Shown here: piece by piece, positions 30,391 to 43,422 of the stretch | Numbering within the stretch: position 1 is the stretch's first letter | Layout of the letters: the number at the start of each line of letters is the position of its first letter | Source of the DNA: a virus | Lineage: Duplodnaviria; Heunggongvirae; Uroviricota; Caudoviricetes | IMG/VR virus record: IMGVR_UViG_3300006153_000005 | Length of the DNA: 52,842 nt | Strand: one strand, 5' to 3' | The notes under the pieces: generated by a model | Seen by the model: the letters and a program-made list of their open reading frames with translations, nothing else | The model's database searches: none | Told to the model about the DNA's origin: nothing | Position numbers and translations under genes: made by a program

Positions 30391-30404
30391 AAATCTTCAC
30401 CTCC

Positions 30405-32213
30405 TTAATTGTAAAATGTTACATATTCGTATTCTGAACTATCCGAAAATAGATCCTGCTCCAAAAGCTCAATGAAATAGTTGCCATAAGATACCGAAGT
30501 ATACCGGTCTTTCCGTGCTCCAGACCGTTCTTCAATTTTAATAAGCCCAGTTTGATTTTGCACCGTATACTCCAGCCCAATCATTTCATTGATTAGTGCT
30601 ACAGTTTCCAAGAAAGGACGCTCATAAAAAAGCTGAGTTTCGACATCTGCTGTCTCATAGTCCGGAACAATTCGCTGTAGTTCCTCCACACCCTCTTGAT
30701 TGGGCACCATTAGCTCAATCATTTTACTGTTGAGTGTATTTTTCATACATACAGCGATTTTACTGTTCGTTTCCAACTGGGCTTTAATAGAGTAAACTAC
30801 TTCTTTCTGACCGGCAATTACGATACGAGATCTTAGGTTATCGTCGTTCATGCACGACCAAGGCTCATATTCTACATTGCGTTCTACATCATATAGAACC
30901 TTCGCTAAGGCATCGTAAATAGCAATACCTGCATTTCTGGTATCCAATACACAGTAGTCCGCATCAAAGTCTGTAAATAGTTGTTTGATCCGAATGGCCT
31001 GCTTGGTTGTTTCAAATTCCGTTTGAGGTTCCATATACACCACTTGCCGGCGATACCCTTGCTTAACTTCAATGTGTTCTCCGTTCACATCAGAAGTCTT
31101 GTATTCCATACTTTCTGGCAAAGCACGAATACAAGAGAAAATAGAGTTATCGTTGCTGTCTCCCCCCTCAGTGGCAATATCACAAGATATAATACGGATT
31201 TCTCCTTGCTGCCGAGGAATAGCATAGAGATTTCTTGCCCGCATCAAAACATCCTCGTTTTTCCGTGGATAGAATGGACGTTTTAGGCAACGGTTCTTAT
31301 TCAACATCTCGTAAGTAAAGTAAGCGTGGGCGTTTTCGGCAATCATTTGGTTTTCGTACTCGATTGCCCATGCTACACTATCCAGTTTGTTCCGTTCTTT
31401 GATAAGGAACGCCCTTGGTTTGATTGCGTGTTTCAACGAAATGCTATAATCCATGCCAATCAGAATAGCAGAATCTTTTTTCAACATATCTTTCACGATG
31501 ATCTTCATCTGATCCCACATCCAATGGTTTTTATACCATGCAGAACTGATATAGACCTCTTTCGGCTCCTCGATCAAAGAACTGTATTCCTCATACTTCA
31601 AAATACATGGAACCTGCCGCACATATAGAAAAGGAGAGAGAACGGTATCAATTATGTTTTTCAGAATCATACGGAACTCTTCATAAATCATTACAGTCGC
31701 ACGGTGTCCACGAGCATTGTCATTGGCCGGCACCACAATAATAGAGCTTCCATTATGGAAGAAAACCTCAATTTCATTCTGATTATCACGGATGCGCTCA
31801 ATCTCCGCCTGCAACAACGGAGATCGAGGTAGAATTTCCTTCTGGATTTTCTCAGACACAATCAGCTTTGCCTGTCCCTTCGTGGCTGAAGCTACGACGA
31901 TTTTCGCACCTGGTCGCAAAATTGCTTCCTTACAAGCATAAATCGCAATGATAAAGGATTTTGCGGCACTCCGCGCTGCAACCAGACAAATACTTGGAAA
32001 GATATCCATTAGAAACAAGATAATGTGTTGATAAAGGTGAAGAGTAATCCCAAAATAATACTGTACGAAACGGCTTGGGTTTCTTCTCCAAAAGGTAATC
32101 CAATCCATTAGTTTCTGTACTCTATGGGGATCTCCCAGATAGTTTGAGGATGAAAAATGCTCATGTACATGACGCTGCCGTTCATCCATAACTTTTTCGT
32201 AATTCATGCTCAC
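30405..32213 (-). CDS. terL: Terminase large subunit
   Basis: Walker A AARSAAKS, RGHRA, Walker B YEEFR, nuclease SCDIA and KDRY. Confidence 0.9.
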   Translation of the reverse strand: MSMNYEKVMDERQRHVHEHFSSSNYLGDPHRVQKLMDWITFWRRNPSRFVQYYFGITLHLYQHIILFLMDIFPSICLVAARSAAKSFIIAIYACKEAILRPGAKIVVASATKGQAKLIVSEKIQKEILPRSPLLQAEIERIRDNQNEIEVFFHNGSSIIVVPANDNARGHRATVMIYEEFRMILKNIIDTVLSPFLYVRQVPCILKYEEYSSLIEEPKEVYISSAWYKNHWMWDQMKIIVKDMLKKDSAILIGMDYSISLKHAIKPRAFLIKERNKLDSVAWAIEYENQMIAENAHAYFTYEMLNKNRCLKRPFYPRKNEDVLMRARNLYAIPRQQGEIRIISCDIATEGGDSNDNSIFSCIRALPESMEYKTSDVNGEHIEVKQGYRRQVVYMEPQTEFETTKQAIRIKQLFTDFDADYCVLDTRNAGIAIYDALAKVLYDVERNVEYEPWSCMNDDNLRSRIVIAGQKEVVYSIKAQLETNSKIAVCMKNTLNSKMIELMVPNQEGVEELQRIVPDYETADVETQLFYERPFLETVALINEMIGLEYTVQNQTGLIKIEERSGARKDRYTSVSYGNYFIELLEQDLFSDSSEYEYVTFYN

Positions 32214-33190
32214 TCCTCCGATCCAGACAGGTTAAACTCCTTATCCATTTCTTTGGAGCCAGTTAAAAGGTTGTTGAGTGGCCGTAACATGAACCTTTGA
32301 ATGTACTCTTTTAGATGGTCATAATCAGCATAAATCGCCTTATCCTTATAGAAGTCAGCCGGACAATGTTCCTCAATATCCCGAATCATCACACCCAAAG
32401 GACTGAGCTGCATTTCTGCTTCTGCTTTCTTCTTACGATCTTCAATCTCCGTTGTGGCCGCTTCGATAAACGCCTTGTAGGAATTTGCAAGAGCACCAAC
32501 ACCTGCCGCACTATTTTTCACACTGTTTTGTAAATTCAGCTTCAAATAGCAGATGGAAACATAAAGCTCATCCTGTCGTTTATCCACAGGCGCACCACAG
32601 CGATCTACCCAGCTGTCATATTCTCCTTGCAGGGTATCATAATCACCATCAGAGAATCCCAATCCAAATCTGCGGATCACCTCGATATTAGTTGTAATAT
32701 CGTCATTGTCCTCCGCCTCTTGTACAGTCGCAGCATTTTCAACCTCAGCCTCAAAGCGCCTGATTAGCGTATCGGAATATGTGGACTCTTTGCTGCTCTG
32801 CTTAATATTCAGCTTAGAGATATATCCACTCATGCGATTGCGATTGGCACTGATTTTTCGTGAAGCGGCCCATGCTGTTTCGTCCACACATAGATCAATA
32901 ATCTGACACACGCGCTCCATTGCAGAATCCTCATCCTTATCAAAGAACGGGATATTCTCTTCAAACATTTCTGCCACGCATTTACGACAGTAAACTACAT
33001 AACCGTTGTTCCCCTTAAACAGTGGGGACTTAGAAGGAGAAAAATTTCCCTCTTGCTTTGTGTACTCATGGCCGCAGCGTGGACAGCGATATACCCTATC
33101 CTCAACAACACGCGGCTCGGCCTCGCTCGGTTTTGCATCCTTATTCACTTTCAAAGGAGTAGGTTTCTTTAGCTGTTTCTTTGCCGCCAT
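32210..33190 (-). CDS. Putative terminase small subunit (Zn finger)
   Basis: CPRC...CRKC; overlaps terL start; position. Confidence 0.6.
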   Translation of the reverse strand: MAAKKQLKKPTPLKVNKDAKPSEAEPRVVEDRVYRCPRCGHEYTKQEGNFSPSKSPLFKGNNGYVVYCRKCVAEMFEENIPFFDKDEDSAMERVCQIIDLCVDETAWAASRKISANRNRMSGYISKLNIKQSSKESTYSDTLIRRFEAEVENAATVQEAEDNDDITTNIEVIRRFGLGFSDGDYDTLQGEYDSWVDRCGAPVDKRQDELYVSICYLKLNLQNSVKNSAAGVGALANSYKAFIEAATTEIEDRKKKAEAEMQLSPLGVMIRDIEEHCPADFYKDKAIYADYDHLKEYIQRFMLRPLNNLLTGSKEMDKEFNLSGSEE

Positions 33191-33216
33191 ACTGCGACCT
33201 CCCTTCTTAATATGAC

Positions 33217-33252
33217 AAAACCTCGGAAATCCGAAGATCCCGAGGTTTTTTT
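33217..33252. terminator. Bidirectional terminator-like hairpin between RNA island and packaging genes
   Basis: AAAACCTCGG/CCGAGGTTTT 10-bp stem; T7 tract on plus strand, T4 on minus strand. Confidence 0.65.
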
Positions 33253-33271
33253 AGTCGTTATAGTATTTTGC

Positions 33272-33347
33272 TGGTGCGCCTAAAGGGACTCGAACCCCCG
33301 GCCAACTGGTTAAAAGCCAGCTGCTCTACCAACTGAGCTACAGGCGC
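33272..33347 (-). tRNA. tRNA-Lys(UUU)
   Basis: Cloverleaf; anticodon loop CTTTTAA; TTCGAGT T-loop; encoded CCA. Confidence 0.97.
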
Positions 33348-33354
33348 ATATATA

Positions 33355-33645
33355 AGGGTGGGTAGGGTCTGTGTGGCCGTATCCCACTGGCCTACCCTCA
33401 CTGATACGGGTGCAAAACATACTTTTTCAGGCTCTCGAAGTCCCGTTGGGGTATGTTAGCCCGCCGCGCTCCTGATCGGCTATGCCGCTTTGCTTACAGC
33501 GTTTAGGTTATCTATCGCGTTTTGCCTGCGCCGGAATTTCACCGGAGGGAGCGACCCCTATGCTACCCACACTCGGTCAATTTTTATTTTACCGACGTGT
33601 CAGAACCGTCACACGTCATCCAGGGTAGAGGTGTGCCTTTTCAGG
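33355..33645 (-). ncRNA. Large ornate RNA, 3' domain (GOLLD-like)
   Basis: Hairpins GACGUGU/ACACGUC, CCGG-UGAAAUU-CCGG, CAUAC/GUAUG; long-range GUGGGUAG(33570-63)/CUACCCAC(33365-58); crossing CAGGC/GCCUG; no credible ORF. Confidence 0.6.
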
Positions 33646-33646
33646 C

Positions 33647-33723
33647 TGGTGGGTTGAGAAGGTAACGATCCTTCATCCTACGGTTTTTCAGACCGTCGCT
33701 CAGACCTCATAAGCCATCAACCC
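33647..33723 (-). tRNA. tRNA-Phe(GAA), atypical T-loop
   Basis: Cloverleaf; loop CTGAAAA; T-loop ATCGTTA; CCA. Confidence 0.85.
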
Positions 33724-33856
33724 ATATATGCGCATTTTTGTTTAACGGTAATCACAGGTCAGCGCATAAGACCACCGCCCGTTTCGTAGGGGTAACGCCT
33801 TTTCGTACCGTTTATCATAGGGTCGTTAGAAAATGGTAAATATCAACACATCCCGT

Positions 33857-33947
33857 TGGCGACGGAGGTGGGATTTGAACCCACGGACGGCTCATCACCG
33901 CCTCCAGTTTTCAGGACTGGTGCCATCAACCACTCGGCCACTCCGCC
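33857..33947 (-). tRNA. tRNA-Ser(UGA), C33
   Basis: Long variable arm; G73; anticodon loop CCTGAAA; CCA. Confidence 0.92.
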
Positions 33948-33998
33948 ATTTGAACCCGACCTTGTTTTAGTTGCATATCGGGTAGCAACAAACACTTG

Positions 33999-34085
33999 TG
34001 GTAGGGGAGGTGGGAATCGAACCCACTCAGCCCGAAAGCAACGGATTTACAGTCCGCCCCAGCTCTCCAACTCTGGCGCTCCCCT
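33999..34085 (-). tRNA. tRNA-Tyr(GUA)
   Basis: Class II cloverleaf; loop CTGTAAA; CCA. Confidence 0.95.
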
Positions 34086-34091
34086 ATATAA

Positions 34092-34430
34092 ATTGCATAA
34101 GTGACTCCACTCCCAGCCTCACCACACACCTTTACGCTGTGCCATATTTCAGCCTTTCTATCGGGGAGCAGGGGGATTAGTGTTTCCCATCTGAGTCTAC
34201 CAAGGTATTTCGATGTACATGACATCCGTTGCACATATCCACGCTTCCGCAGTTACGTGGCTGTTGCCATCTGTGTGCGGCTATGGCCTGTGCGCAGCTT
34301 CCGCAACGCCCTCGATAGTACAACGCTACCTAACCGCTCTTTCTTTTATGCCCAGTCACTCCCTCACAGGAGGCCACCTTGGATTACGACCGCCACTCAC
34401 AGCCGTGATATGTTATCTCAATCGGGCAAA
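34092..34430 (-). ncRNA. Large ornate RNA, 5' domain (GOLLD-like)
   Basis: Multiple hairpins; long-range GUGACU/AGUCAC and crossing CCAAGGU/ACCUUGG; 11/12-bp helix to the 33625-33636 segment. Confidence 0.5.
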
Positions 34431-34432
34431 TA

Positions 34433-34508
34433 TGGAGCTGGTGCAGGGACTCGAACCCAGAACCCACCGCTTACAAAACGGTTGCTCTACCATTAGAGCT
34501 ACACCAGC
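34433..34508 (-). tRNA. tRNA-Thr(UGU)
   Basis: Cloverleaf; loop TTTGTAA; CCA. Confidence 0.96.
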
Positions 34509-34511
34509 AAA

Positions 34512-34587
34512 TGGAGCTGACGCAGAGACTCGAACTCTGAACCCGCTGCTTACGAAACAACTGCTCTACCATTGGAGCTACGTCAGC
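34512..34587 (-). tRNA. tRNA-Thr(CGU)
   Basis: Cloverleaf; loop TTCGTAA; CCA; near-paralog of the adjacent Thr tRNA. Confidence 0.95.
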
Positions 34588-34588
34588 A

Positions 34589-34662
34589 TGGCAGGGGCCG
34601 AAAGATTTGAACTCTCACCAAAAGTTTTGGAGACTTTCATGCTACCGTTACACCAGACCCCT
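34589..34662 (-). tRNA. tRNA-Trp(CCA)
   Basis: Cloverleaf; loop CTCCAAA; G73; CCA. Confidence 0.95.
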
Positions 34663-34665
34663 ATA

Positions 34666-34741
34666 TGGCGACCTCGGCGGGTTTCGATCCCGCTACCTCC
34701 AGCGTGACAGGCTGGCGCTCTTCCGATTGAGCTACGAGGCC
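34666..34741 (-). tRNA. tRNA-Asp(GUC), T-loop begins with A
   Basis: Cloverleaf; loop CTGTCAC; T-loop ATCGAAA; CCA. Confidence 0.93.
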
Positions 34742-34744
34742 ATT

Positions 34745-34975
34745 TTACTTATCCCAAGGTATTTTATCATCTAAATCCAGGGGAGACTTCGCTGTACTAA
34801 TTTGTTCATATCCGTCTTCAACCTTGCGCCATAAAGTAAACCGCATCCTTTCCAGACATTGAGTTATGAAATATTCCTGTCCGGTTGTCGTAATACAATG
34901 AACACCAGTCCCATTCTCAGAAGAAGGAAATTTTCTCACGATTTTCGGTTTATTATCAGCAGATCCTCTTGCCAT
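34745..34975 (-). CDS. Small hypothetical protein embedded in tRNA array
   Basis: ATG 34975 (MARGSADNKPK) behind RBS AAGAGGAG; fills the gap between tRNA-Glu and tRNA-Asp. Confidence 0.7.
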   Translation of the reverse strand: MARGSADNKPKIVRKFPSSENGTGVHCITTTGQEYFITQCLERMRFTLWRKVEDGYEQISTAKSPLDLDDKIPWDK

Positions 34976-34990
34976 AGCTACTCCTCTTTT

Positions 34991-35067
34991 TGGTGATGCC
35001 GGAGAGATTTGAACTCTCAAACTCCGCCTTGAGAGGGCGGCGACTCTACCAATTCGTCCACGGCACC
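34991..35067 (-). tRNA. tRNA-Glu(CUC)
   Basis: Cloverleaf; loop CTCTCAA; CCA. Confidence 0.94.
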
Positions 35068-35072
35068 AAGTA

Positions 35073-35149
35073 TGGTACTCCCAGCGAGGCTCGAACTCGC
35101 ATTACCGGCTTGAAAGGCCAGCCTCCTATTCCAGTTAGAGGATGGGAGC
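35073..35149 (-). tRNA. tRNA-Glu(UUC)
   Basis: Cloverleaf; loop CTTTCAA; CCA. Confidence 0.94.
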
Positions 35150-35157
35150 ATATATTA

Positions 35158-35296
35158 AGATGTGGGCGAGGATTTGCACCTCACATAACCCAGCCAGAGC
35201 TGGAGTCCTCCGGTTGTATCGTCTTTGTCAAACGCCGCACAGCTCTCCACCACTGTCTTACGACTCCATAGCGTCTACCTATTCCGCCACCACATC
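35158..35296 (-). ncRNA. tRNA-like RNA with expanded anticodon arm and no encoded CCA
   Basis: Acceptor GAUGUGG/CCACAUC; Leu-type D arm GCGGAAUAGGUAGACGC; UGGAG/CUCCA stem enclosing ~58 nt; T arm GAGG-UGCAAAU-CCUC. Confidence 0.75.
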
Positions 35297-35298
35297 TT

Positions 35299-35372
35299 TG
35301 GCAGGGGTGGCTGGAATCGAACCAACGATGCGGGAGTCAAAGTCCCGTGCCTTACCATTTGGCGACACCCCT
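35299..35372 (-). tRNA. tRNA-Gln(UUG)
   Basis: Cloverleaf; loop CTTTGAC; G73; CCA. Confidence 0.95.
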
Positions 35373-35381
35373 AAATCGCTA

Positions 35382-35410
35382 TTGTATTTTTCTCAGAAAT
35401 ATGGTATAAA
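35382..35410 (+). promoter_or_regulatory. sigma70-type promoter of the antisense small gene
   Basis: TTGTAT-N17-TATAAA with extended -10 TG. Confidence 0.7.
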
Positions 35411-35444
35411 CTTCTTGTAGCAAACTTTATAAGGAGGCGTAACC

Positions 35445-35642
35445 ATGGCTGAGGAAAAGAAAACCGTTACTCGTAGGAAACGCACACCGGAACAACGTAT
35501 CAAGGACATCGACGCCCAGATCGCAAAGCTACAAGCAGAAAAAGCAGAGCTTGAAAAGCCAATCAAAATCCAACAGATCCTGGCAAAAGCATCCGATATG
35601 TCTCCCGAAGAAATCGCTGAAAAGCTCGGTATTGAGCTGTGA
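35445..35642 (+). CDS. Small coiled-coil protein, stand-alone unit antisense to the tRNA array
   Basis: RBS AAGGAGG; own promoter and terminator; MAEEKKTVTRRKRTPEQRIKDIDAQIAKLQAEK. Confidence 0.85.
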   Translation: MAEEKKTVTRRKRTPEQRIKDIDAQIAKLQAEKAELEKPIKIQQILAKASDMSPEEIAEKLGIEL

Positions 35643-35649
35643 TTTCTCT

Positions 35650-35675
35650 CCCCGCCGAAAGGCGGGGTTTCTTTA
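35650..35675 (+). terminator. Intrinsic terminator
   Basis: CCCCGCC-GAAA-GGCGGGG followed by TTTCTTT. Confidence 0.85.
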
Positions 35676-35751
35676 TGGAGATACCGATAGGATTTGAACC
35701 TACGATCCTGGGGTTGCGGCCCAGAGCCTTACCAATCTTGGCTACGGTATC
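35676..35751 (-). tRNA. tRNA-Cys(GCA), C33
   Basis: Cloverleaf; loop CCGCAAC; U73; CCA. Confidence 0.93.
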
Positions 35752-35865
35752 ATAACGGGCCTAACAGCGTGTATCGTTGCCTTATGCAATCACTGTTTCC
35801 ACTCTGAATAGAGCGTGTCAGGGTTTCTGGTTTTCCCTCCGCCTACTATAAACCCTTGTTCGGCT

Positions 35866-35951
35866 TGGTGCTGGTGGTGGGACTTGAACCCACACGCCAT
35901 TTCTGGCAACAGATTTTGAGTCTGCCTCGTCTGCCATTCCAACACACCAGC
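35866..35951 (-). tRNA. tRNA-Leu(CAA)
   Basis: Class II cloverleaf; loop CTCAAAA; CCA. Confidence 0.95.
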
Positions 35952-35959
35952 GTGTTTCC

Positions 35960-36024
35960 TACGGAGCACATTTTGGGTTGTCAATTAAAAGTTGATTCCA
36001 AAAAAAAGTTGCTGTTAGTGCTCC
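35960..36024 (-). ncRNA. ACAGCAA stem repeat, copy 1 (displays a Lys(UUU)-type anticodon loop)
   Basis: GGAGCAC-UAACAGCAA-...-UCAA[CUUUUAA]UUGA-...-GUGCUCC-GUAG. Confidence 0.6.
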
Positions 36025-36026
36025 AA

Positions 36027-36110
36027 TGGTAGGGATAGTGGGAGTCGAACCCACACGCGAACTGCGTCGGAACCTAAATCCGGTGCGTCTGCCAATTCCG
36101 CCATATCCCC
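36027..36110 (-). tRNA. tRNA-Leu(UAG)
   Basis: Class II cloverleaf; loop TTTAGGT; CCA. Confidence 0.95.
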
Positions 36111-36334
36111 ATAAAACCATCCAAGGCAATCTGATCGTCACCAGTTGCAAGGAGCTGCGGCCAGCTCCACATGGCTGGTAATATCCCACTTGGCTCTACG
36201 TTCACTAACGGTTTGTGGGCAACCAACAGGTATTTTTCCCTGCTCCCATCCCTCCACTATTTGCTAAAGATGCCAGGGGAGCCGGCACCTATCATCATAT
36301 CTGCCAAAGTAGAGAAGTCACAGATATAATAGAT

Positions 36335-36410
36335 TGGAGTGAGAAACGGGACTTGAACCCGCAACATCCGACTTGGAAGGACGGCGCTCTACCAGTTGAG
36401 CTATTCCCAC
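36335..36410 (-). tRNA. tRNA-Gly(UCC)
   Basis: Cloverleaf; loop CTTCCAA; U73; CCA. Confidence 0.96.
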
Positions 36411-36567
36411 ATATTGACCTACTCACACCGTAGGCCATGGTGCCAACTCTCTGCTGTTGGGACGCAGCGGTTTCGCTTGAAACCTGCTAAAAGTTTTCAC
36501 TGCCAGATTGTGAACATTTCTATTCCCCATTCAGTTTACAGTCTCCGCTCTGTTTGTGGGGTGGGCA

Positions 36568-36643
36568 TGGTGGCGGGAGTGGGACTCGAACCCACGATCT
36601 CCAACTTATGAGGATGACGAGATGACCGCTTCTCTATCCCGCT
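36568..36643 (-). tRNA. tRNA-Met(CAU), initiator-like but atypical
   Basis: A1xC72 mismatch and fMet-like D arm, but the anticodon stem UCAUC/GUUGG lacks the three G-C pairs; CCA. Confidence 0.85.
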
Positions 36644-36719
36644 ATATGTTGGCAGTTCTAAAAACAGCACCGATGTAGACATCAGTTGCCTGTAAACTCT
36701 CTGCCATGTTTTGAGCTAC

Positions 36720-36796
36720 TGGCTGGCAGGGTGGGACTCGAACCCACGACCCTCTGATTAACAGTCAGATGCTACTGCCATCTGAGCTACCCGCCA
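36720..36796 (-). tRNA. tRNA-Asn(GUU)
   Basis: Cloverleaf; loop CTGTTAA; G73; CCA. Confidence 0.95.
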
Positions 36797-36806
36797 ATAC
36801 TTAGGC

Positions 36807-36953
36807 TACGAGACGCGAAAAAAATGGAGGTGGTTATCCTTGTCGGACTTAAAAAACATTTGATAGAATATTTTGAAAATTTGCTGTGCGCGTCTCACAG
36901 GACACTTTTTTTCTTTTTTACCTTAAAAAATTATAAATTGCTGTTAGTGTCCC
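36807..36953 (-). repeat. ACAGCAA stem repeats, copies 2 and 3 in tandem
   Basis: GGGACAC-UAACAGCAA...GUGUCCU-GU (36897-36953) and GAGACGCG-CACAGCAA...CGCGUCUC-GUAG (36807-36896). Confidence 0.6.
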
Positions 36954-36959
36954 TATGTA

Positions 36960-37384
36960 TGGTGGAGCCGAGGGGATTCGCACCCCTGTCCGAAATTCCT
37001 ACATGAGCAAGACCTTCTTACACAATAGACGATTTTCCAGCGATGCCTTGCGGCGGGCACTTGCGATACCGTCAAATCTTTCCTAGGGCGTACTGGTTTG
37101 TACACCTCCACCACCTTGTCTTTATTTTACAGAAGCACAAGGAGAAACTGCACGTGCTGGATGATTCTTTAACCGCAGACGCTTACCCATATCCAGCTGG
37201 TGCGTCGTTTTGGAATCCAGCCACCAATCAGGCAGCAGCCCTCTCAGCCACAAAAGCAGCAAAAGCGGGGTGGATCATTACAACAGATTCAGTGTTGTCA
37301 TTTCATTTTTAGGTATGCCTTTAGGCGGTCATCTACCTGTGAGTCTTGCACTCTCAAAACCCCGTCGAATCTAAAAACGGCCCC
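36960..37384 (-). ncRNA. ssrA: tmRNA
   Basis: 5' GGGGCCG..GAUUCGAC; G3.U70; 3' T arm plus ACCA; tag frame 37299-37228 = DNTESVVMIHPAFAAFVAERAAA*. Confidence 0.95.
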
Positions 37385-37407
37385 ATATAGAATTGTCAAA
37401 GTACCTA

Positions 37408-37483
37408 TGGTCGGGACGAGAAGAATTGAACTTCTGACCGCACGATTATCAGTCGTGTGCTCTACCAACTGAGCTATATCCCG
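37408..37483 (-). tRNA. tRNA-Ile(GAU)
   Basis: Cloverleaf; loop CTGATAA; CCA. Confidence 0.96.
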
Positions 37484-37597
37484 ATTTAGCGATATGCGTC
37501 CGAAGAACCTCGTTCATGACCGATAGGTTTCTGACAGGAATAGTAGTTAAGTAATGAACTGAACCACACAAGCGTCAGCATAACCAACATATCTTGC

Positions 37598-37673
37598 TGG
37601 TGGAATTAGGGAGGATCGAACTCCCGACCTCCTGCTTGCAAAACAGGCGCTCTCCCAACTGAGCTACAACCCC
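37598..37673 (-). tRNA. tRNA-Ala(UGC)
   Basis: Cloverleaf; G3.U70; loop TTTGCAA; CCA. Confidence 0.97.
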
Positions 37674-37699
37674 ATACATTGATTTTGTTTGTTTCTAAG

Positions 37700-38332
37700 G
37701 AAAATTTAATCTTTCCATCATACTCACCACTGGGCCTTCGCCCTACCTCCATAATCTTCTTCATTGTTCCGCCACCAGGGAGACAAGTCTGAGCTTCGGG
37801 GAGCGACCCCTAACTTCTTGCCCCAGCGCCATAGCGCCACCTCCTACGTGAGCCTGTTTACTCACAAATTTCACCGTTCGTTCAGAAAAGTTTTGAATTA
37901 AATACTTACTTTTATAGTAATTTCTTCAAAAGATTTTGCAATCTGTCCTACGGCTACTCTAACCAGTGACTTTCGTTATAGCCGGATTTCTCCGACATCA
38001 AGACAGGAGCGCATTGTTGGTTTTACCTCCGTATCTCTCGGCTACCACACCGAGCTACTGCAAGGCTTATTCTCCACAGGAGCGTCTATTGTTGCGCCCG
38101 AAAGTTCTGTGCGTTATGAAGCGATAACTCTTGGCGACATATGTTTCTGTTGGCGGTTTCCGCCTCCCCACCGTACATCACTGTACAGTAGCGGCCTCAC
38201 TTGAAAGGTATCCCTATGCTACGATGTCCATAGACAATCGCCAAGTCAAACCGAAAATACCATACGCCTCGGAGTGCTGACACACTTTGTTCACCGAGTT
38301 AGTAATAAGCATGATGCAAAGATTAAATTTTC
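37700..38332 (-). ncRNA. Large ornate RNA, ROOL-like (633 nt)
   Basis: 5' and 3' ends pair over 32 nt (31 pairs, 4 of them G.U on the minus strand); dense internal hairpins; no ORF; tRNA-array context; size fits ROOL. Confidence 0.72.
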
Positions 38333-38343
38333 AAGGAACATTG

Positions 38344-38411
38344 ATTTTGTTCGCCGCTATGGTTATAGTATAGCACGCTCTGAACCAGATGTCAATAGCG
38401 GCGAACAAAAT
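38344..38411 (-). promoter_or_regulatory. sigma70 promoter of the RNA island, bracketed by a perfect 17-bp inverted repeat
   Basis: TTGACA(38395-90)-N17-TATACT(38372-67) with extended TG; arms ATTTTGTTCGCCGCTAT (38344-60) and ATAGCGGCGAACAAAAT (38395-411). Confidence 0.85.
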
Positions 38412-38415
38412 TTTT

Positions 38416-38733
38416 TCAATTTTTTTCTGCTCTGCTCAACAAGCGGAGTTTCCCAGGGTCGTTAGCCTTTACAGCCTCTTTCAAATTATCACCAGGACGG
38501 AACACAACCACCCGATAATCGTCCATTTGTCTTTGCTTTTTGGTATGGATGTCTCGCACAAGACATCCTTTCCTTGTCTTCACCTCAAATGTCCCAAATC
38601 CCCGAATTGTTACTTTCTCGCCATGAGCCAACGCCTCTGCAATGACATGGAACACATCGTTGATTACAGCACCAGCCTGATTTTTGTAATAGTCCATCTC
38701 GGACAAGGCAACTACAAGATCGTTTTTGAGCAC
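38416..38733 (-). CDS. hup: HU/IHF-family DNA-binding protein
   Basis: ALAHGEKVTIRGFGTFEVKTRK...VVFRPG...LKEAV signature. Confidence 0.92.
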   Translation of the reverse strand: MLKNDLVVALSEMDYYKNQAGAVINDVFHVIAEALAHGEKVTIRGFGTFEVKTRKGCLVRDIHTKKQRQMDDYRVVVFRPGDNLKEAVKANDPGKLRLLSRAEKN

Positions 38734-38744
38734 ATGATCACTCC

Positions 38745-39983
38745 TCAGTTCAGTTTGATCTGATAATATGCGTCAGCGCCAATCCCAGGCGTAAACACCA
38801 TCATCAGTTGACCCGGAGTGGAATATAACCGCTTCCCGTTCGCATACTCGTCAGTTCCGCAAAGGCACCTTACGATCATGCTCTCAATGCCCAATTCCTC
38901 AAATTCCTCTTTGTGGTGCTTATCAGCAAGGATAACATAATCAATTCCAGAGCCATATTTCTTCACAAACAGAGTGTTCAACGTCCTGCCGGCGTTCTTC
39001 ACACTGTCAAGGTCGCCGTGAGTGGCGCAAATCTGATAACCACACACATTAAAGTATAGAAATTCGTAATACTCAGCTTGGGGAAATTGAATGTCGCCCC
39101 TATCACCCAGTCGTTGTTCCAGCCACCAAGGAATCAGACGCTCCATGTTATCCGCGTGAATGCTGTCTTGTTTATTCTGGACGGTGCGCAAATGATTTCC
39201 GTAGGTTGCGTGTACCACCGTTTCGTCAACTACATCTGCCAGAGCAGCCACTGCTTGGGCAATAATTTCCGACACCTGCATCACCTGATCGCACACCAAC
39301 TCTTCAGAGGCAACACGGGCACTGGTGTGAATCGCACCGTGGGCCATATCCCCCAGCAGAAGGATATGAAGCCTCCGACAGCGATGCAGTCTGATCCGTT
39401 CGATTGCCGTTTCCACCAACCGTTCCACACGACAGCGGCACACTTCGGTATTATAACGCTCCCAGATGTTATCTGTCACCATACCATAGTGCCAATCCGC
39501 AAACACAATAACCGCTTCGTTATCACCATAGGCGTAAACGGAAGATTTGTCTATATTCAGAGGCGTAGACTCGTTCAATGCCGCAGCCGCCTCCACAAGA
39601 CGGTCTTCCAGATTTTCAGTCCGTCCAATGCGGTCAACCAGCTTGTTAAACTCACGCCGCTGATCAAAGAGCCGTTTAGATTCTTTTCTGGCTTCAGCAA
39701 TTTTGATATCAAGCTCTCCCAGATATTGCTCTTTATCCGGTCGGTCTACCGCTGCATACTTTCGCTTAAAGTGTTGGGCGACGGCATAGCCAGAGTATGG
39801 CGTAACAGACGCCGCTTTCCTCAGACTATCCCGATGACAGTCCAGCTGAGTCGCCTCTACGATATCTTCCCAGTCCAGGTCGTCCGGTTTCTGCTCCATC
39901 TTAATTTCAATCAGACGAAGCCCATACTCGTAAAGATCTTCACCATCTTTTTGCTCGTACTTAGGGTTCACGAATTGTTTCAC
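38745..39983 (-). CDS. Calcineurin-like metallophosphoesterase/nuclease (SPbeta YonJ-like position)
   Basis: DWH, GD, GNH, HGD, DKHH motifs. Confidence 0.85.
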   Translation of the reverse strand: MKQFVNPKYEQKDGEDLYEYGLRLIEIKMEQKPDDLDWEDIVEATQLDCHRDSLRKAASVTPYSGYAVAQHFKRKYAAVDRPDKEQYLGELDIKIAEARKESKRLFDQRREFNKLVDRIGRTENLEDRLVEAAAALNESTPLNIDKSSVYAYGDNEAVIVFADWHYGMVTDNIWERYNTEVCRCRVERLVETAIERIRLHRCRRLHILLLGDMAHGAIHTSARVASEELVCDQVMQVSEIIAQAVAALADVVDETVVHATYGNHLRTVQNKQDSIHADNMERLIPWWLEQRLGDRGDIQFPQAEYYEFLYFNVCGYQICATHGDLDSVKNAGRTLNTLFVKKYGSGIDYVILADKHHKEEFEELGIESMIVRCLCGTDEYANGKRLYSTPGQLMMVFTPGIGADAYYQIKLN

Positions 39984-40174
39984 CTCTCTTCTGTCGGCGG
40001 CAATTCTATCTGTCGCTCAATTATTAGTGTAATATTGGGTACTCCACTCCACCGTTTTAGAATTTCCTCTATGCTGTAGGTGTTTACTTTATCCCTGTGA
40101 AATTCCGTCAAGGTTCCGTCAGAACAGTCGATTGTGACATTTGTATATTGTTCTCTTTGCTCCTGAAAGGCCAT
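39980..40174 (-). CDS. YonK-like small protein
   Basis: 64 aa; YSIEEILKRWSG...ITLIIERQIELP resembles SPbeta YonK; adjacent to the phosphoesterase as in SPbeta. Confidence 0.55.
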   Translation of the reverse strand: MAFQEQREQYTNVTIDCSDGTLTEFHRDKVNTYSIEEILKRWSGVPNITLIIERQIELPPTEER

Positions 40175-40410
40175 CAACACTCACCACTCTGGCTTTTTCT
40201 TCGCGCATCCCGTAGCGCACGTTGGCGGTCAAACTCCTTCACCCTTTCTGCAGCCGCAGAATTACTGTCGGCAATCGGACGCATCAGCTCCTCGCTCTCC
40301 GTACAGAAATAGTGATGCCGTTTGGAATCTTGCTTCATGGTACGGGGAAATTTATAATGCGGGAACAGTTTGACCAGTAGGTCTTTCTCTTGCTTGGTAA
40401 TCGAAATCAC
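40174..40410 (-). CDS. Small hypothetical protein
   Basis: GTG start with RBS; stop overlaps the next start (TGATG). Confidence 0.65.
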   Translation of the reverse strand: MISITKQEKDLLVKLFPHYKFPRTMKQDSKRHHYFCTESEELMRPIADSNSAAAERVKEFDRQRALRDARRKSQSGEC

Positions 40411-40472
40411 GAAAAACTCATCCTTTTCATATAGATTCGAGGGGCTTGATTTTGTTCGTTACTTCCCCTTCA

Positions 40473-40539
40473 TAATTTGACCACAAAAATGCTATTCCTA
40501 ACCGCCGAGCAACCTCGGCGGTTAGGTGTGGTCAAATTA
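40473..40539. terminator. Long bulged hairpin (terminator or processing site) after the RNA polymerase gene
   Basis: 13-bp outer and 13-bp inner perfect stems with an 11-nt bulge and CAAC loop. Confidence 0.6.
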
Positions 40540-40587
40540 GAATTTTTCTACCAAAAAGCAATAATTCACACCCGGATTTGTGCTTTT

Positions 40588-43422
40588 TCAACGAATACAG
40601 TCGGCCAAATTCGCCGGAATCACCATCTCTCTGCGGAATCGGAAGTCATAGATTTCGATACTTCCTGCGATATTTTCATCTTCTACCAGCAACGGGATTG
40701 GTGTCCGGCTTTGCTCGATCAAATTCAAGAAGTCCTGATTGGGCAAAGAAAATAGCGCATAGAAAAGAGTCCTTGAAATTTCCTTGTTGGCTGGATCTTC
40801 GATTGCCAATAGTAAGCGGTATGCCGTATGACGATTTAGTTTGAGCTTTTCAATGTAGCTCAGGTATTCCTGTCTAACCTCGTTTACCAGAATCGCCTTA
40901 CCGTAGTTATCCAGATCGTCGTCTGTACCGTTCCAAATCATTTGAATCTTGGATCTCATATCACGCACAAACTCCAGGATACGGTCTACCTGCGGATATT
41001 TGACAGAACGAGCGGAATATTCATCTTTGGGCATCAGCAATGCAGAAAACGGCACATAATCACGATGAACATGATTGACACGGAAAGTATTCAGACTGTG
41101 CTGTAGGTAGTCCATCGTAGTATCGTGGAATTTGTAATTCTTCCGATCACTGTCATAATACCCTTTCATACGGGCAATCTTTCCGAAAAAGTTGGGTTTG
41201 ATTTGCCTACCATCATCATCTCGTGCCTCGTGCTTCTTTCTCAGCCTTTTAATCTCCGCTACACTATCTACGGCGTATTCCCGTTTGGCTTTGTCGATTT
41301 CGATGTTAGAAAGCACATCCAACTGGGCAATTTCACAGTAAAGCTCCTCCACCTCGGAGAAGTCTGCGCCGCTGTTCAGTGCATCCCATAGTTTAGTATT
41401 CAGCTCTTGCGAGAGATTTACAATCTCACCAATCTTGTTGACCGATGTTTTGATGTCCAAATCGGACTGATCCGCACGAGTGTAATGCCGCACAATCTTC
41501 TTGGCGTCAACCAGACTTGTAGGAACCAAGAAGCGATTATAATTCCTCTCTGCGGCACCAATTAGGATGGGATTGTCAGTTAAAAGCATAGTATCCGAGT
41601 CAAAATCAGCACCGGATAAACGGAATAAGATATTCTCCTCAATACTGTTGACACACACGACTTCTTTAGTGAGATTGAAAAAACGCTCAATTTCTGAATT
41701 TTCACGGTTTTTTGTCAACAGAATATTCCCCATTGTTACATGAGGACTGCGGGAGCCAAGAATGGTCTGATTGAAGCGAAAGCGCTTGCTATAAATATTG
41801 CCAGCTCCAATTTGGCTTGTGCCATCAAACGACCCAATAGCCGCATACAGCATTTCCATCGGATTACCCAGCAAAGTAGAGTAATTGCCGTCAACCAAAA
41901 TATGACCTCTGCGAATGTCCTTTTTGAACGCTTTGCTTATGTCGTGCTTGAAGTCTTCATACAGACGGGTATTTGCAAATTTATCTGTAACCCCTAACAT
42001 CTGATAGACGATATCATTTGTGGTTGGTGCTGCGTTAATCGGCTTATCAACACCAGAATAACGGATATGATACCGCAATACTGCCGGGTCATTCTGAATC
42101 ATTCTCAGATAGTCCAACGACGGTTTCACCAACAAATCTACTTCCTGTTGCGTCATCTGCAAAGTATTCAGCAGCTGGTAATGAATCTGAACCATACGTC
42201 CATCAAAGAAGTCCGTAGGCTTCTCATATTTCACCACACCAAAATCACCGTCATCTTCTAAGAGCCTCAGCCACGTTTCCAACGGGCCAAACTTTACATA
42301 CTTGATGCTGCTTGGCGTCGTGATGATTTTGATGTCACTAATCGAATTTGCGAGAGTAAACCCGTTTAGCTGGGACACCTCTGTGATTCCTTGAGCAGCA
42401 AAAAACTCCTGAATATTGCAGTTGAAGCAAGCCGACTTGAAGAAGCGGTTGCGGAGCAGGATCATTCCGTGTTCACCATACTCTGCCATTGCACTCTTGT
42501 CTATCAAAGACTGTCCATCCCAGATGCTATTCTCAACTTCAACATCTTCTGGCTGAGATGATAGCCACCCATCATCCCCAACTCTGGTGGCGATTACTCG
42601 ATCTTTGAACTTACTGGTATAATCGTCAATCACCAGGAAGTTTTCGGGACGAAGTGGAATTGTACCAATGATACTGCTCAACGTCAGAGCAATGTAAGCC
42701 TCAAATCCGGCCAGGTCAAGGTCTTGCCCATCTCGGATGTGTAAACCGCACTGCTCCCATTTGTGCATACGAGGATAAAGCCGTTCATCAATAAAGAGGC
42801 ACTTGCCAACCCGACCGCTGCCAGCAGAACGCTTAAACCTCCGAAAACGAATACCGTCACACACAAAGCCATCATGGTACAACCGACTCCGTAACTGGGC
42901 AGCGGTAAAGACAACTTTCATACTTTTTCCCAGCTTGTAAACACCGTCCTCAAACACAAACAGATTCCCCAAGACTGAAGACTCCACAGGCTGATCCACT
43001 GGGTTATCTACTCGAACAGCGATCAATTCTCCGTCCTTTATGCAGATATTGTCTACCAACTCTACATCAGACGGGAGATAACCGTATTTGATATAGGTTT
43101 TATCGAAAAAACGGTTAAACTCCTTGACACTGTACTTAAACGTTACATTGATGACTCGACGGCAATATTCTTTGCCTCGTTTGAAGAAAGTAAAGTCCAT
43201 TCTACGGTAGATTTTCTCAAAGACCTCACGCATTTTAATAAGATCCAGACTGTAATCCAGCGTATTCACAAACCGTTTCGTATTAAATTCACCACGATTG
43301 TCTCCGCTACTATACCTCACGGTATATTCCGTACAACAATCATTGGAATAGTTGGACAAAAACAAATCCTTTGCGTCCGCAGACACGATGTACACTGAAT
43401 TATTGATAGGTCTACCCTCCAT
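40588..43422 (-). CDS. yonO: Single-subunit RNA polymerase of the eukaryotic-RdRP-like / SPbeta YonO family
   Basis: 944 aa; RSPH (first barrel) and LSGADFDSD (catalytic DxDxD); location upstream of late genes as in SPbeta. Confidence 0.88.
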   Translation of the reverse strand: MEGRPINNSVYIVSADAKDLFLSNYSNDCCTEYTVRYSSGDNRGEFNTKRFVNTLDYSLDLIKMREVFEKIYRRMDFTFFKRGKEYCRRVINVTFKYSVKEFNRFFDKTYIKYGYLPSDVELVDNICIKDGELIAVRVDNPVDQPVESSVLGNLFVFEDGVYKLGKSMKVVFTAAQLRSRLYHDGFVCDGIRFRRFKRSAGSGRVGKCLFIDERLYPRMHKWEQCGLHIRDGQDLDLAGFEAYIALTLSSIIGTIPLRPENFLVIDDYTSKFKDRVIATRVGDDGWLSSQPEDVEVENSIWDGQSLIDKSAMAEYGEHGMILLRNRFFKSACFNCNIQEFFAAQGITEVSQLNGFTLANSISDIKIITTPSSIKYVKFGPLETWLRLLEDDGDFGVVKYEKPTDFFDGRMVQIHYQLLNTLQMTQQEVDLLVKPSLDYLRMIQNDPAVLRYHIRYSGVDKPINAAPTTNDIVYQMLGVTDKFANTRLYEDFKHDISKAFKKDIRRGHILVDGNYSTLLGNPMEMLYAAIGSFDGTSQIGAGNIYSKRFRFNQTILGSRSPHVTMGNILLTKNRENSEIERFFNLTKEVVCVNSIEENILFRLSGADFDSDTMLLTDNPILIGAAERNYNRFLVPTSLVDAKKIVRHYTRADQSDLDIKTSVNKIGEIVNLSQELNTKLWDALNSGADFSEVEELYCEIAQLDVLSNIEIDKAKREYAVDSVAEIKRLRKKHEARDDDGRQIKPNFFGKIARMKGYYDSDRKNYKFHDTTMDYLQHSLNTFRVNHVHRDYVPFSALLMPKDEYSARSVKYPQVDRILEFVRDMRSKIQMIWNGTDDDLDNYGKAILVNEVRQEYLSYIEKLKLNRHTAYRLLLAIEDPANKEISRTLFYALFSLPNQDFLNLIEQSRTPIPLLVEDENIAGSIEIYDFRFRREMVIPANLADCIR

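What the first reader, a model, noticed from the sequence alone, without database searches (positions are those of the whole stretch)
35960..36953. Three ACAGCAA stem repeats placed directly after CCA ends, one displaying a perfect tRNA-Lys anticodon loop
Each unit is a 7-8-bp GC-rich stem, then (U/C)(A)ACAGCAA, a U-rich variable insert, the complementary strand, and GU(A/G). The stems differ in sequence yet all pair, which amounts to internal covariation. Copy 1 carries UCAA[CUUUUAA]UUGA, the same 7-nt loop as this phage's tRNA-Lys(UUU). Copies 2 and 3 carry weaker Leu-like loops (UUAAGGU; UUUAAGU). tRNA-Lys(UUU) is the target of the anticodon nucleases PrrC and PARIS AriB, so these could be anticodon-stem-loop decoys on a common protein-binding scaffold. 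I recall similar ACAGCAA stems near Ro60/TROVE genes but cannot verify that here.
Basis: partly seen in the sequence, partly recalled or inferred. Interest (0 to 1): 0.75.

Follow-up and report, generated by a model that had tools for sequence, protein, structure and literature searches.

The report
Phage Ro60-like protein's partner small RNAs
Three small hairpin RNAs wedged between the tRNA genes of a mouse-gut phage belong to an apparently undescribed RNA family (a short clamp helix followed by ACAGCAA) that travels with a Ro60-shaped phage protein, and one of them displays a conserved copy of the lysine-tRNA anticodon arm.

Summary
On the minus strand lie three units: A 36899-36953, B 36810-36896 and C 35962-36025. 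Each is a 7-8-bp clamp helix, then ACAGCAA, a variable insert, the closing strand and GU. A and C start 6 and 1-2 nt after a CCA end; B follows A.

They sit at the same array positions in related phages, with covarying stems. The same handle is strongly and strand-specifically enriched next to genes for a DUF2828/vWA protein: 217 units against 6 on the opposite strand across 80 viral loci, 6 of 6 cultured phages and 10 of 10 bacterial loci. An RNA-first search of 150 genomes landed only just upstream of that gene. My model of the protein matches only Ro60 structures over its full length.

Copy C's lysine anticodon-like hairpin is conserved with compensatory stem changes, and switches to the asparagine loop in two lineages. 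Across the family, CU-NNN-AA loops are about 27-fold enriched. The Leu-like loops of A and B are not supported.

Most likely these are Y-RNA-like partners of the Ro60-like protein that display tRNA parts. A decoy role against anticodon nucleases is untested. This scan has noted the same family before on other DNA. I found no Rfam family or paper describing it.

The parts
36899..36953 (-). Unit A: clamp GGGACACU/AGUGUCCU, UA-ACAGCAA (36938-36944), 31-nt A/U-rich insert with a U6/A6 hairpin; begins 6 nt after the tmRNA CCA
   Evidence: R1 55.6 bits; Rfam RF01414 30.9 bits, below the 41.5 cut-off; orthologues with covarying stems
36810..36896 (-). Unit B: clamp GAGACGCG/CGCGUCUC, C-ACAGCAA (36881-36887), 63-nt insert; begins 2 nt after unit A and ends 13 nt before tRNA-Asn
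   Evidence: (z -3.26); every one of 16 distinct spacers upstream of tRNA-Asn(GUU) in related arrays holds such a unit
35962..36025 (-). Unit C: clamp (U)GGAGCAC/GUGCUCC(G), UA-ACAGCAA (36009-36015), insert with an anticodon-arm-like hairpin; lies between tRNA-Leu(UAG) and tRNA-Leu(CAA)
   Evidence: R1 64.9 bits; in relatives the spacer is either 75-80 nt with the unit or 3-4 nt without it
35981..35995 (-). Inner hairpin of unit C: UCAA-CUUUUAA-UUGA, with a 7-nt loop identical to the tRNA-Lys(UUU) anticodon loop
   Evidence: loop kept in 6 lineages; CUGUUAA (Asn) in L035 and L064; AUUUUAA in L023; stem AUCAA/UUGAU becomes AUAGA/UCUAU in L058 (two compensatory pairs)
36960..37384 (-). tmRNA whose CCA end precedes unit A
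   Evidence: RF00023, 72 bits
36027..36110 (-). tRNA-Leu(UAG) whose CCA end precedes unit C
35866..35951 (-). tRNA-Leu(CAA), 10 nt downstream of unit C; its RNase P site would define the 3' side of the released RNA (inferred)
36720..36796 (-). tRNA-Asn(GUU), 13 nt downstream of unit B
33272..33347 (-). Phage tRNA-Lys(UUU), whose anticodon loop CUUUUAA is copied in unit C
38367..38395 (-). Sigma-70-type promoter (TTGACA-17-TATACT, TG extended) heading the RNA island
33221..33236 (-). Terminator-like hairpin closing the island after tRNA-Lys

Best explanation
Units A, B and C are three genes of a small-RNA family defined by a 'handle': a 6-9-bp helix that joins the two ends of the RNA, followed on the 5' side by single-stranded (UA)ACAGCAA.

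They are transcribed with ROOL, the tmRNA and 19 tRNAs from one promoter. They are probably cut out as 55-90-nt RNAs by the enzymes that mature the neighbouring tRNAs, with the clamp helix protecting their ends. This step is inferred.

The handle is most likely the docking site of the phage's DUF2828/vWA protein, a ring-shaped structural relative of Ro60. In collinear relatives that protein is encoded about 45 kb from the array, beside more such RNAs and RNA-repair genes (RNA ligase, PNK/HD phosphatase, RlaP). Binding is inferred from linkage and has not been shown.

The variable insert is a display module. In unit C it is a mimic of the tRNA-Lys(UUU) anticodon arm, or tRNA-Asn in some relatives. 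The particle would therefore present tRNA parts to a tRNA-recognising factor, much as bacterial Y RNAs (YrlA) pair a Ro60-binding stem with a tRNA-like domain.
For: Shown directly:
- Anatomy and folds of the three units.
- Orthologues at the same array positions with covarying clamps: 97.7% of cells paired, 6 of 8 pairs changed on both sides, slid controls 27-60% paired.
- A synteny-based count free of stem selection: 16 of 16 spacers before tRNA-Asn hold units, and unit C is present or cleanly absent.

Linkage to the protein:
- In 80 viral DUF2828 loci, ACAGCAA occurs 476 times on the gene strand, 37 times on the opposite strand, and 64 times on average for permuted controls. Stem units number 217, 6 and 11 respectively. 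Of the 217, 192 lie within 2 kb upstream, and 76 of 80 loci have at least one.
- 6 of 6 cultured phages from six host genera have same-strand units beside the gene.
- An RNA-first search with model R2 in 150 bacterial genomes hit 4 genomes, each 150-400 nt upstream of a DUF2828 ORF. All 10 DUF2828 loci in those genomes carry a unit.
- Related phages with array units carry the gene in 4 of 4 records that are at least 90% complete. Five relatives without the gene have no unit anywhere.

Protein fold: the AF2 model has pLDDT 81.6, and its top 13 PDB matches are all Ro60/TROVE over about 510-590 columns (9KOP E 4.8e-8).

Display module: 7-nt loops number 159 against 74 in shuffles; CU-NNN-AA loops 23 against 0.85 expected; stems are mostly 5 bp. 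The unit C hairpin is conserved with compensatory changes.

Transcription hint: contigs from three metatranscriptome studies bridge the units, and carry higher mean depth than the contigs of flanking genes in the same runs.

One promoter and one terminator bracket the island.
Against: - No binding data exist; the linkage could reflect another shared factor.
- The DUF2828-less relatives also have very small tRNA sets, so that contrast is a single clade difference rather than independent events.
- The RNA evidence is contigs only. It shows no ends, strand or discrete species, and run X1 looks like DNA.
- Units A and B show no recognisable tRNA part.
- Some orthologues break the anticodon-loop rules: A32 in L023, and A33 in the G003 paralogue (L069:15217-15287).
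Confidence: 0.6

Rival explanations
1. Anticodon-nuclease decoys. The units, above all C, soak up or inhibit host anticodon nucleases that cut tRNA-Lys(UUU), such as PrrC, RloC or PARIS AriB, and so protect translation during infection. The handle serves only for stability or for loading.
For: - Unit C's loop is identical to the tRNA-Lys loop, is conserved, and sits on an anticodon-arm-sized stem.
- Anticodon-type loops are enriched across the family.
- In relatives the gene set beside the DUF2828 gene is an RNA-repair kit: RNA ligase, PNK/HD and RlaP. This is the classic counter to anticodon nucleases.
- The phage also carries its own tRNA-Lys.
Against: - Only one of the three units has such a loop.
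- The loop switches to Asn or loses Y32/U33 in some lineages.
- The mimicked anticodons are diverse: Lys, Ser, Cys, Asn, Tyr, Ile, Met. No single nuclease fits that range.
- PrrC-type enzymes depend on base modifications that a 4-5-bp mini-hairpin may not acquire (established knowledge, not tested here).
- No nuclease was tested.
Confidence: 0.15
2. Passive processing or spacer hairpins. The clamps merely organise cleavage of the polycistronic tRNA precursor, or protect neighbouring tRNAs from exonucleases, and the excised pieces have no function of their own.
For: The units abut tRNA ends: 1-6 nt after a CCA and 10-13 nt before the next tRNA. Related arrays can lack unit C without other change.
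Against: - The invariant single-stranded ACAGCAA is not needed for a hairpin.
- Of 201 family units, 152 have no tRNA 3' end within 150 nt upstream.
- In Listeria, Campylobacter, Enterococcus and Mycobacterium phages the units sit beside the DUF2828 gene rather than between tRNAs.
- The inner hairpin of C is conserved with covariation.
Confidence: 0.1
3. The handle is read by something other than the DUF2828 protein, for example a host factor or a ribonuclease. On this view, the linkage to the gene arises mainly because the gene's own leader and neighbours carry regulatory copies.
For: Many DUF2828 genes have a mini stem-ACAGCAA hairpin in their own 5' leader (L160:2396-2430). That looks like an operator and would by itself create some linkage.
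Against: An operator recognised by the gene's own product is the simplest reading of that leader hairpin, and it supports direct binding. Units far from the gene, as in this window, still co-occur with it genome by genome.
Confidence: 0.1
4. A chance resemblance among A/U-rich spacers.
For: ACAGCAA is only 7 nt, and permissive stem rules give about 18% false stems for control 7-mers.
Against: - Three of three motifs in the island carry 7-8-bp GC-rich clamps.
- The units are syntenic and covarying in relatives.
- There is a 36-fold strand bias next to DUF2828 genes.
Confidence: 0.01

Closest known systems
Bacterial and phage Y RNAs bound by Ro60/Rsr (YrlA/YrlB, Rfam RF02553; Yrl1/Yrl2 of Thermus phage phiLo; PMC4201824, PMC12135203)
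   Same: - Small RNAs whose two ends form a stem next to a short conserved protein-contact motif.
- A second module that mimics tRNA.
- Genes clustered with a Ro60-fold ring protein (HEAT-repeat ring plus vWA), and often with RNA-repair genes.
   Different: - The protein is DUF2828/DUF7788. It is not detected by Pfam TROVE or by sequence search against PDB Ro60s, and is related by fold only.
- The motif is single-stranded ACAGCAA after the 5' strand, not GNCGAA or GGUCCGA within a bulged helix.
- These three copies lie in the main tRNA array, far from the gene.
- They display an anticodon arm, or nothing recognisable, rather than the T/D-arm domain of YrlA.
- The best YrlA score here is 25 bits against a cut-off of 69, and that match overlaps tRNA-Asn.
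Dictyostelium Class I RNAs (Rfam RF01414; PMC7919456)
   Same: - Near-identical design: a 6-bp terminal stem that varies in sequence but always pairs.
- A motif directly after the 5' strand: CCUUACAGCAA in Dictyostelium, (C)UAACAGCAA here.
- An A/U-rich variable region, a length of about 55-65 nt, and a C(U)GU tail.
- Unit A aligns end to end at 30.9 bits.
   Different: - The score is below Rfam's cut-off of 41.5. Units B and C gave no match, and none of 14 related loci passed.
- The host is a phage of gut bacteria.
- There is no DUSE promoter; these units are processed from a tRNA operon.
- The known Dictyostelium partner is the RRM protein Rnp1A.
- The authors report the class as unique to dictyostelids.
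- Homology versus convergence remains undecided.
tRNA-linked ornate phage RNAs in the same operon (ROOL, Rfam RF03087)
   Same: Non-coding RNAs co-transcribed with phage tRNA arrays. ROOL heads this very island.
   Different: ROOL is about 600 nt and forms protein-free cages. The units here are 55-90-nt hairpins with a protein-linked handle.

Membership tests
Stem-ACAGCAA small RNAs linked to DUF2828 (no published name found) | Terminal helix of 6-9 bp joining the 5' and 3' ends, variable in sequence but always pairing | tested here: met
   Units A, B and C each have 7-8 bp. Across 22 orthologues and paralogues, 97.7% of cells pair and 6 of 8 pairs change on both sides.
Stem-ACAGCAA small RNAs linked to DUF2828 (no published name found) | ACAGCAA 0-3 nt after the 5' strand, followed by a variable insert, with G or GU after the 3' strand | tested here: met
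   Linkers are UA, C and UA; tails are GU, GUAG and GUAG.
Stem-ACAGCAA small RNAs linked to DUF2828 (no published name found) | A DUF2828/vWA gene in the same genome | tested here: inconclusive
The window's own assembly is not held. Collinear relatives G003, G004, G006 and G007 carry it, and five relatives without units lack it.
Dictyostelium Class I RNA (RF01414) | Score at or above Rfam's gathering cut-off of 41.5 bits | tested here: not met
   Unit A scores 30.9 bits. Units B and C give no match at E up to 10. None of 14 related loci passes.
Dictyostelium Class I RNA (RF01414) | Short stem plus the 11-nt motif next to its 5' strand, and a CUGU end | tested here: met
   The alignment shows the stem, CU-ACAGCAAUU and the CUG tail for unit A. 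B and C share ACAGCAA and a GU tail.
Dictyostelium Class I RNA (RF01414) | Own DUSE promoter about 60 nt upstream; dictyostelid genome | tested here: not met
   The units lie inside a bacterial-type tRNA operon with one sigma-70-like promoter at 38395-38367.
Y RNA / YrlA (RF02553) | GNCGAAN0-1G (or GGUCCGA) Ro-contact motif near the 5' end | tested here: not met
   None of the three units has it at the 5' stem. GUCCGA inside unit B's insert is not conserved in orthologues.
Y RNA / YrlA (RF02553) | tRNA-like T and D arm domain; Rfam score of at least 69 bits | tested here: not met
   The best YrlA match is 25.1 bits at 36672-36775, overlapping tRNA-Asn and not a unit. Other family members do carry T arms (L058, L073, L159).
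Y RNA / YrlA (RF02553) | Bound by a Ro60-family protein | not testable with these tools
   Only linkage to a Ro60-fold protein is shown.
Anticodon stem-loop mimic | 5-bp stem and a 7-nt loop with Y32, U33 and R37, identical to a real anticodon loop | tested here: met
   This holds for unit C only: 4 bp here and 5 bp in most orthologues, loop CUUUUAA as in the phage tRNA-Lys. For units A and B it is not met.

The most novel reading that the evidence does not exclude
The clamp-plus-ACAGCAA handle is the universal recognition element of the DUF2828/DUF7788 branch of Ro60-like proteins in phages, bacteria and eukaryotes. On that reading the 'orphan' Class I RNAs of Dictyostelium are its eukaryotic members, that is, Y-RNA analogues. 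In phages the particle would use displayed anticodon arms (Lys, Asn, Ser, Cys and others) to intercept host tRNA-cleaving defence nucleases, or to guide repair of the tRNAs they cut.
Probability: 0.12. Interest if true: 0.9.

Novelty: new variant of a known kind. Interest (0 to 1): 0.68.

Why it matters
Ro60-Y RNA particles are a classic but poorly understood RNA-surveillance system. This work points to a second, much more widespread phage and bacterial branch of it: 711 cultured phage records carry the protein. That branch has its own simple RNA handle, and the handle makes partner RNAs predictable from sequence.

This window adds three points:
- Partner RNAs can be scattered in the main tRNA operon, far from the protein gene.
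- They are positioned so that tRNA processing would release them.
- One of them carries a conserved lysine (or asparagine) anticodon-arm mimic.

Together these make a concrete, testable link between Ro60-like particles, phage tRNA arrays, RNA-repair genes and host anticodon nucleases.

The near-identity of the handle to Dictyostelium Class I RNAs, which are reported as unique to social amoebae and have no known mechanism, offers a possible route to their function.

Tried and rejected
- blastn of the island against cultured phages found only tRNA matches.
- The nearest held records, G001 and G002, share other parts of the window but not this region. They have no TROVE match.
- Pfam TROVE gave nothing in five related phage genomes. 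A profile of the protein found no PDB sequence match. The Ro60 relation is visible by fold only.
- Records behind loci from the look-up of encoding contigs could not be searched, so I could not reach the DUF2828 gene of the window's own genome.
My stem scanner first missed B because of a G-U limit.
- Terminator reading rejected: no minus-strand terminator-like site coincides with a unit, and the tails are GUAG rather than U runs.
- The Leu-like loops of A and B were rejected.
- The RNA libraries were available only as contigs. They cannot show ends, strand or discrete small RNAs, and run X1 is flat like DNA.
- AlphaFold-DB cluster hits came without organism names, so I could not test whether Dictyostelium has a DUF2828/DUF7788 protein.
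- No paper in the held library links ACAGCAA, DUF2828 or Class I RNAs to phages.
- No protein-RNA docking tool was available.
Full report
**Setting.** The window is a phage or prophage found in mouse-gut samples (runs). It carries terminase, portal, tape-measure and integrase genes. On the minus strand, 33272-38322 forms one RNA island. It holds ROOL (37713-38322), a tmRNA (36960-37384) and 19 tRNAs. A strong sigma-70-type promoter lies at 38395-38367 and a terminator-like hairpin at 33236-33221.

**The observation.**
- Unit A (36953-36899) is GGGACACU, A, ACAGCAA, a 31-nt A/U-rich insert, then AGUGUCCU and GU.
- Unit B (36896-36810) is GAGACGCG, C, ACAGCAA, a 63-nt insert, then CGCGUCUC and GUAG.
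- Unit C (36025-35962) is U-GGAGCAC, UA, ACAGCAA, a 39-nt insert, then GUGCUCC-G and UAG.

The predicted folds close each unit with its clamp. ACAGCAA occurs exactly three times in the island, and each occurrence has a GC-rich clamp of 7-8 bp. Control 7-mers of the same composition acquire a permissive stem in about 18% of cases. A starts 6 nt after the tmRNA CCA. C starts 1-2 nt after the CCA of tRNA-Leu(UAG) and ends 10 nt before tRNA-Leu(CAA). B follows A by 2 nt and ends 13 nt before tRNA-Asn. 'After CCA ends' is therefore right for A and C only. The hairpin UCAA-CUUUUAA-UUGA lies at 35995-35981, and its loop equals that of the phage tRNA-Lys(UUU).

**Known families.** Rfam has no family for these units at its thresholds. 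At relaxed thresholds, unit A aligns end to end with the Dictyostelium Class I RNA model at 30.9 bits, against a cut-off of 41.5. The alignment covers the stem, CU-ACAGCAAUU and the CUG tail. B and C give no match, and none of 14 related loci passes the cut-off. The published description of Class I RNAs is a 6-bp terminal stem of variable sequence, an 11-nt motif next to its 5' strand, a variable remainder, a CUGU end and a length of about 60 nt, reported as unique to dictyostelids (PMC7919456). That is strikingly the same design, but membership by score is not met.

**Orthologues.** I used the exonuclease gene upstream of the island as bait and fetched 53 related viral loci. Units A, B and C recur at the same array positions with different but pairing clamps. 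On an alignment of 22 units, 97.7% of cells pair and 6 of 8 pairs show changes on both sides. Sliding the partner strand drops pairing to 27-60%. Those units had been chosen for having a stem, so I also counted by synteny.
- All 16 distinct spacers upstream of tRNA-Asn(GUU) contain ACAGCAA with a clamp.
- The spacer before tRNA-Leu(CAA) is either 75-80 nt with unit C or 3-4 nt without it.

Unit C therefore behaves as a discrete cassette. The gene upstream of unit A differs between phages (tmRNA here, tRNA-Pro in relatives), and so does the one upstream of unit C (tRNA-Leu or tRNA-Gly). The 1-6-nt distance from a CCA end is kept all the same.

**The protein.** The closest complete relative, G003, is 138 kb with terminal repeats and is collinear with the window. 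It has a second cluster of units at 93.9-95.3 kb. That cluster lies directly upstream of a 519-aa protein with the Pfam domains DUF2828 and DUF7788 and a weak vWA signal. Downstream follow a class-V aminotransferase, an RNA ligase, an RlaP-type nucleotidyltransferase and a kinase/HD phosphatase. Pfam TROVE does not detect this protein, and neither does a sequence profile against the PDB. An AlphaFold2 model built on 24 homologues (pLDDT 81.6) has Ro60/TROVE structures as all of its 13 best PDB matches, over essentially its full length. These include Thermus phage phiLo Ro60, Xenopus and human Ro60, and Deinococcus Rsr. The best reviewed AlphaFold entries are Ro60 proteins and telomerase p80. 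It is therefore a Ro60-shaped protein from a sequence family with no functional literature.

**Linkage of handle and protein, tested four ways.**
1. In 80 viral loci fetched with the protein, ACAGCAA occurs 476 times on the gene strand, 37 times on the other strand, and 64 times on average for 40 permuted control motifs. Clamp-bearing units number 217, 6 and 11 respectively. Of the 217, 192 lie in the 2 kb upstream of the gene, and 76 of 80 loci have at least one.
2. The protein occurs in 711 cultured phage records. All six I opened carry same-strand units beside the gene. They were Listeria LMSP-25, E. coli AYO145A (Felix O1-like), Campylobacter CPX, Mycobacterium Finnry, Sinorhizobium phiM12 and Enterococcus EF1.
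3. An RNA-first search with model R2, built from 64 diverse units, over 150 bacterial genomes hit four genomes. Every hit lies 150-400 nt upstream of a DUF2828 ORF on the same strand. All ten DUF2828 loci in those genomes have a unit by the descriptor scan.
4. Within this phage group, genomes with array units carry the gene in 4 of 4 records that are at least 90% complete. Five relatives without the gene have no unit anywhere.

The fourth contrast is weak on its own. The gene-less relatives also have only 1-6 tRNAs, so it may be a single evolutionary event.

**The anticodon question.** The inner hairpin of unit C is conserved in its orthologues. The loop is CUUUUAA in six lineages, CUGUUAA (the tRNA-Asn loop) in L035 and L064, and AUUUUAA in L023. 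In the distant L058 the stem AUCAA/UUGAU becomes AUAGA/UCUAU, two compensatory pairs, while the loop stays CUUUUAA. A paralogue next to the G003 gene has UGAA-CAUUUAA-UUCA, which is again compensatory but lacks U33.

I clustered family inserts into 133 groups. Hairpins with 7-nt loops number 159, against 74 in shuffles, while other loop sizes except 9 are at background. Loops of the form CU-NNN-AA number 23, against 0.85 expected from permuting each loop (maximum 4 in 1000 permutations). Anticodon-like loops sit mostly on 5-bp stems, the length of a real anticodon stem, and 18 more loops look like T loops. The anticodons seen are UUU, UGA, GCA, GCU, GUU, GUA, UCA, GGA, GAU and CAU. Units A and B do not share the feature. 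A's inner hairpin has a purine-rich loop of varying size, and B's insert is poorly conserved.

**Expression.** Thirteen runs recorded as RNA, from mouse-gut or related samples, hold the stretch. I laid four of them on 30000-42000. Contigs from three studies bridge the units: X5 at 35911-37704, X6 at 35911-37673, and X4 at 35328-36400 and 36385-37673. The contigs carrying the island have a higher mean depth than those carrying the flanking genes in the same runs. The fourth run, X1, is flat like DNA. These are contigs, so they show presence in RNA libraries and hint at transcription. They say nothing about ends or discrete small RNAs.

**Interpretation.** The best-supported reading is that A, B and C are partner RNAs of the Ro60-like DUF2828 protein. 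That makes them functional analogues of Y RNAs.
- The clamp plus ACAGCAA would be the protein handle.
- The insert would be the displayed cargo.
- Release would be a by-product of tRNA maturation.

Binding, release and the purpose of the display are inferred. A decoy or tether for enzymes that read the anticodon arm, whether defence nucleases, modification enzymes or repair enzymes, is plausible given the neighbouring RNA-repair genes in relatives. It remains untested. The units fail the defining sequence features of YrlA-type Y RNAs (the GNCGAA motif, the T/D-arm domain and the Rfam score, PMC4201824). They also fail Rfam's threshold for Class I RNAs. I therefore file them under neither family, but as a new variant of the Ro60-Y RNA kind.

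**Relation to earlier work in this scan.** Earlier notes describe the same handle-protein pairing on many other genomes, and on another window of this genome. I found the Class I resemblance independently and re-tested the pairing with my own data. What this window adds:
- copies that lie remote from the gene, inside the main tRNA/tmRNA operon;
- the cassette-like presence or absence of unit C;
- the conserved Lys/Asn anticodon-arm mimic;
- a quantitative test of loop enrichment.

I found no Rfam family and no paper in the held library that describes the family.

Noticed in passing
L077:3935-3968, L080:3935-3970, L089:3935-3968, L160:2396-2430: Many DUF2828 genes carry a 32-36-nt mini stem-ACAGCAA hairpin in their own 5' leader, 15-60 nt before the start codon. 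This is a candidate operator for autoregulation by the protein.
   Followed up: partly
L158:2359-2422, L159:4196-4278, L079:2343-2403: A Ser(GCU)-type loop CUGCUAA on a 5-bp stem recurs inside units of Campylobacter phage CPX, Mycobacterium phage Finnry and a gut phage. The same tRNA arm is mimicked in very distant phages.
   Followed up: no
L073:22386-22511, L159:4053-4181, L058:14475-14587: Some family members enclose a whole or permuted tRNA-like body (T arm, D arm) inside the ACAGCAA clamp, which is reminiscent of YrlA.
   Followed up: no
window 36650-36707 (-): A conserved hairpin, GGCAGA...ACUGCC, lies between tRNA-Asn and tRNA-Met (MFE z -2.6). The stem covaries in G003 (GACGG/CCGUC). 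It is a different element from the ACAGCAA units.
   Followed up: partly
window 36111-36334 and 36411-36567 (-): Two long inter-tRNA spacers fold moderately well (z -2.4 and -2.1), and the second is conserved in G003. They may be further unknown RNAs.
   Followed up: partly
window 37723-38313: One metatranscriptome contig (X4, depth 3420) joins the end of ROOL back to its start ('goes back 591'). This could be a circular or tandem ROOL molecule or an assembly artefact. ROOL-bearing contigs have by far the highest depth in three RNA studies.
   Followed up: no
window 37673: RNA contigs from two studies (X4, X6) end exactly at the 5' end of tRNA-Ala. This is a weak hint of RNase P cleavage.
   Followed up: no
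L069:15615-16568 and L159:1-933: An SPFH/Band-7 membrane protein gene lies just upstream of the unit cluster and DUF2828 gene, both in the gut phage G003 and in Mycobacterium phage Finnry.
   Followed up: no
L074:3334-3447, 3661-3775, 3781-3898; L077:3572-3685: tRNA matches of 114-124 nt lie directly upstream of DUF2828 genes. They are tRNA-shaped RNAs with insertions of about 40 nt.
   Followed up: no
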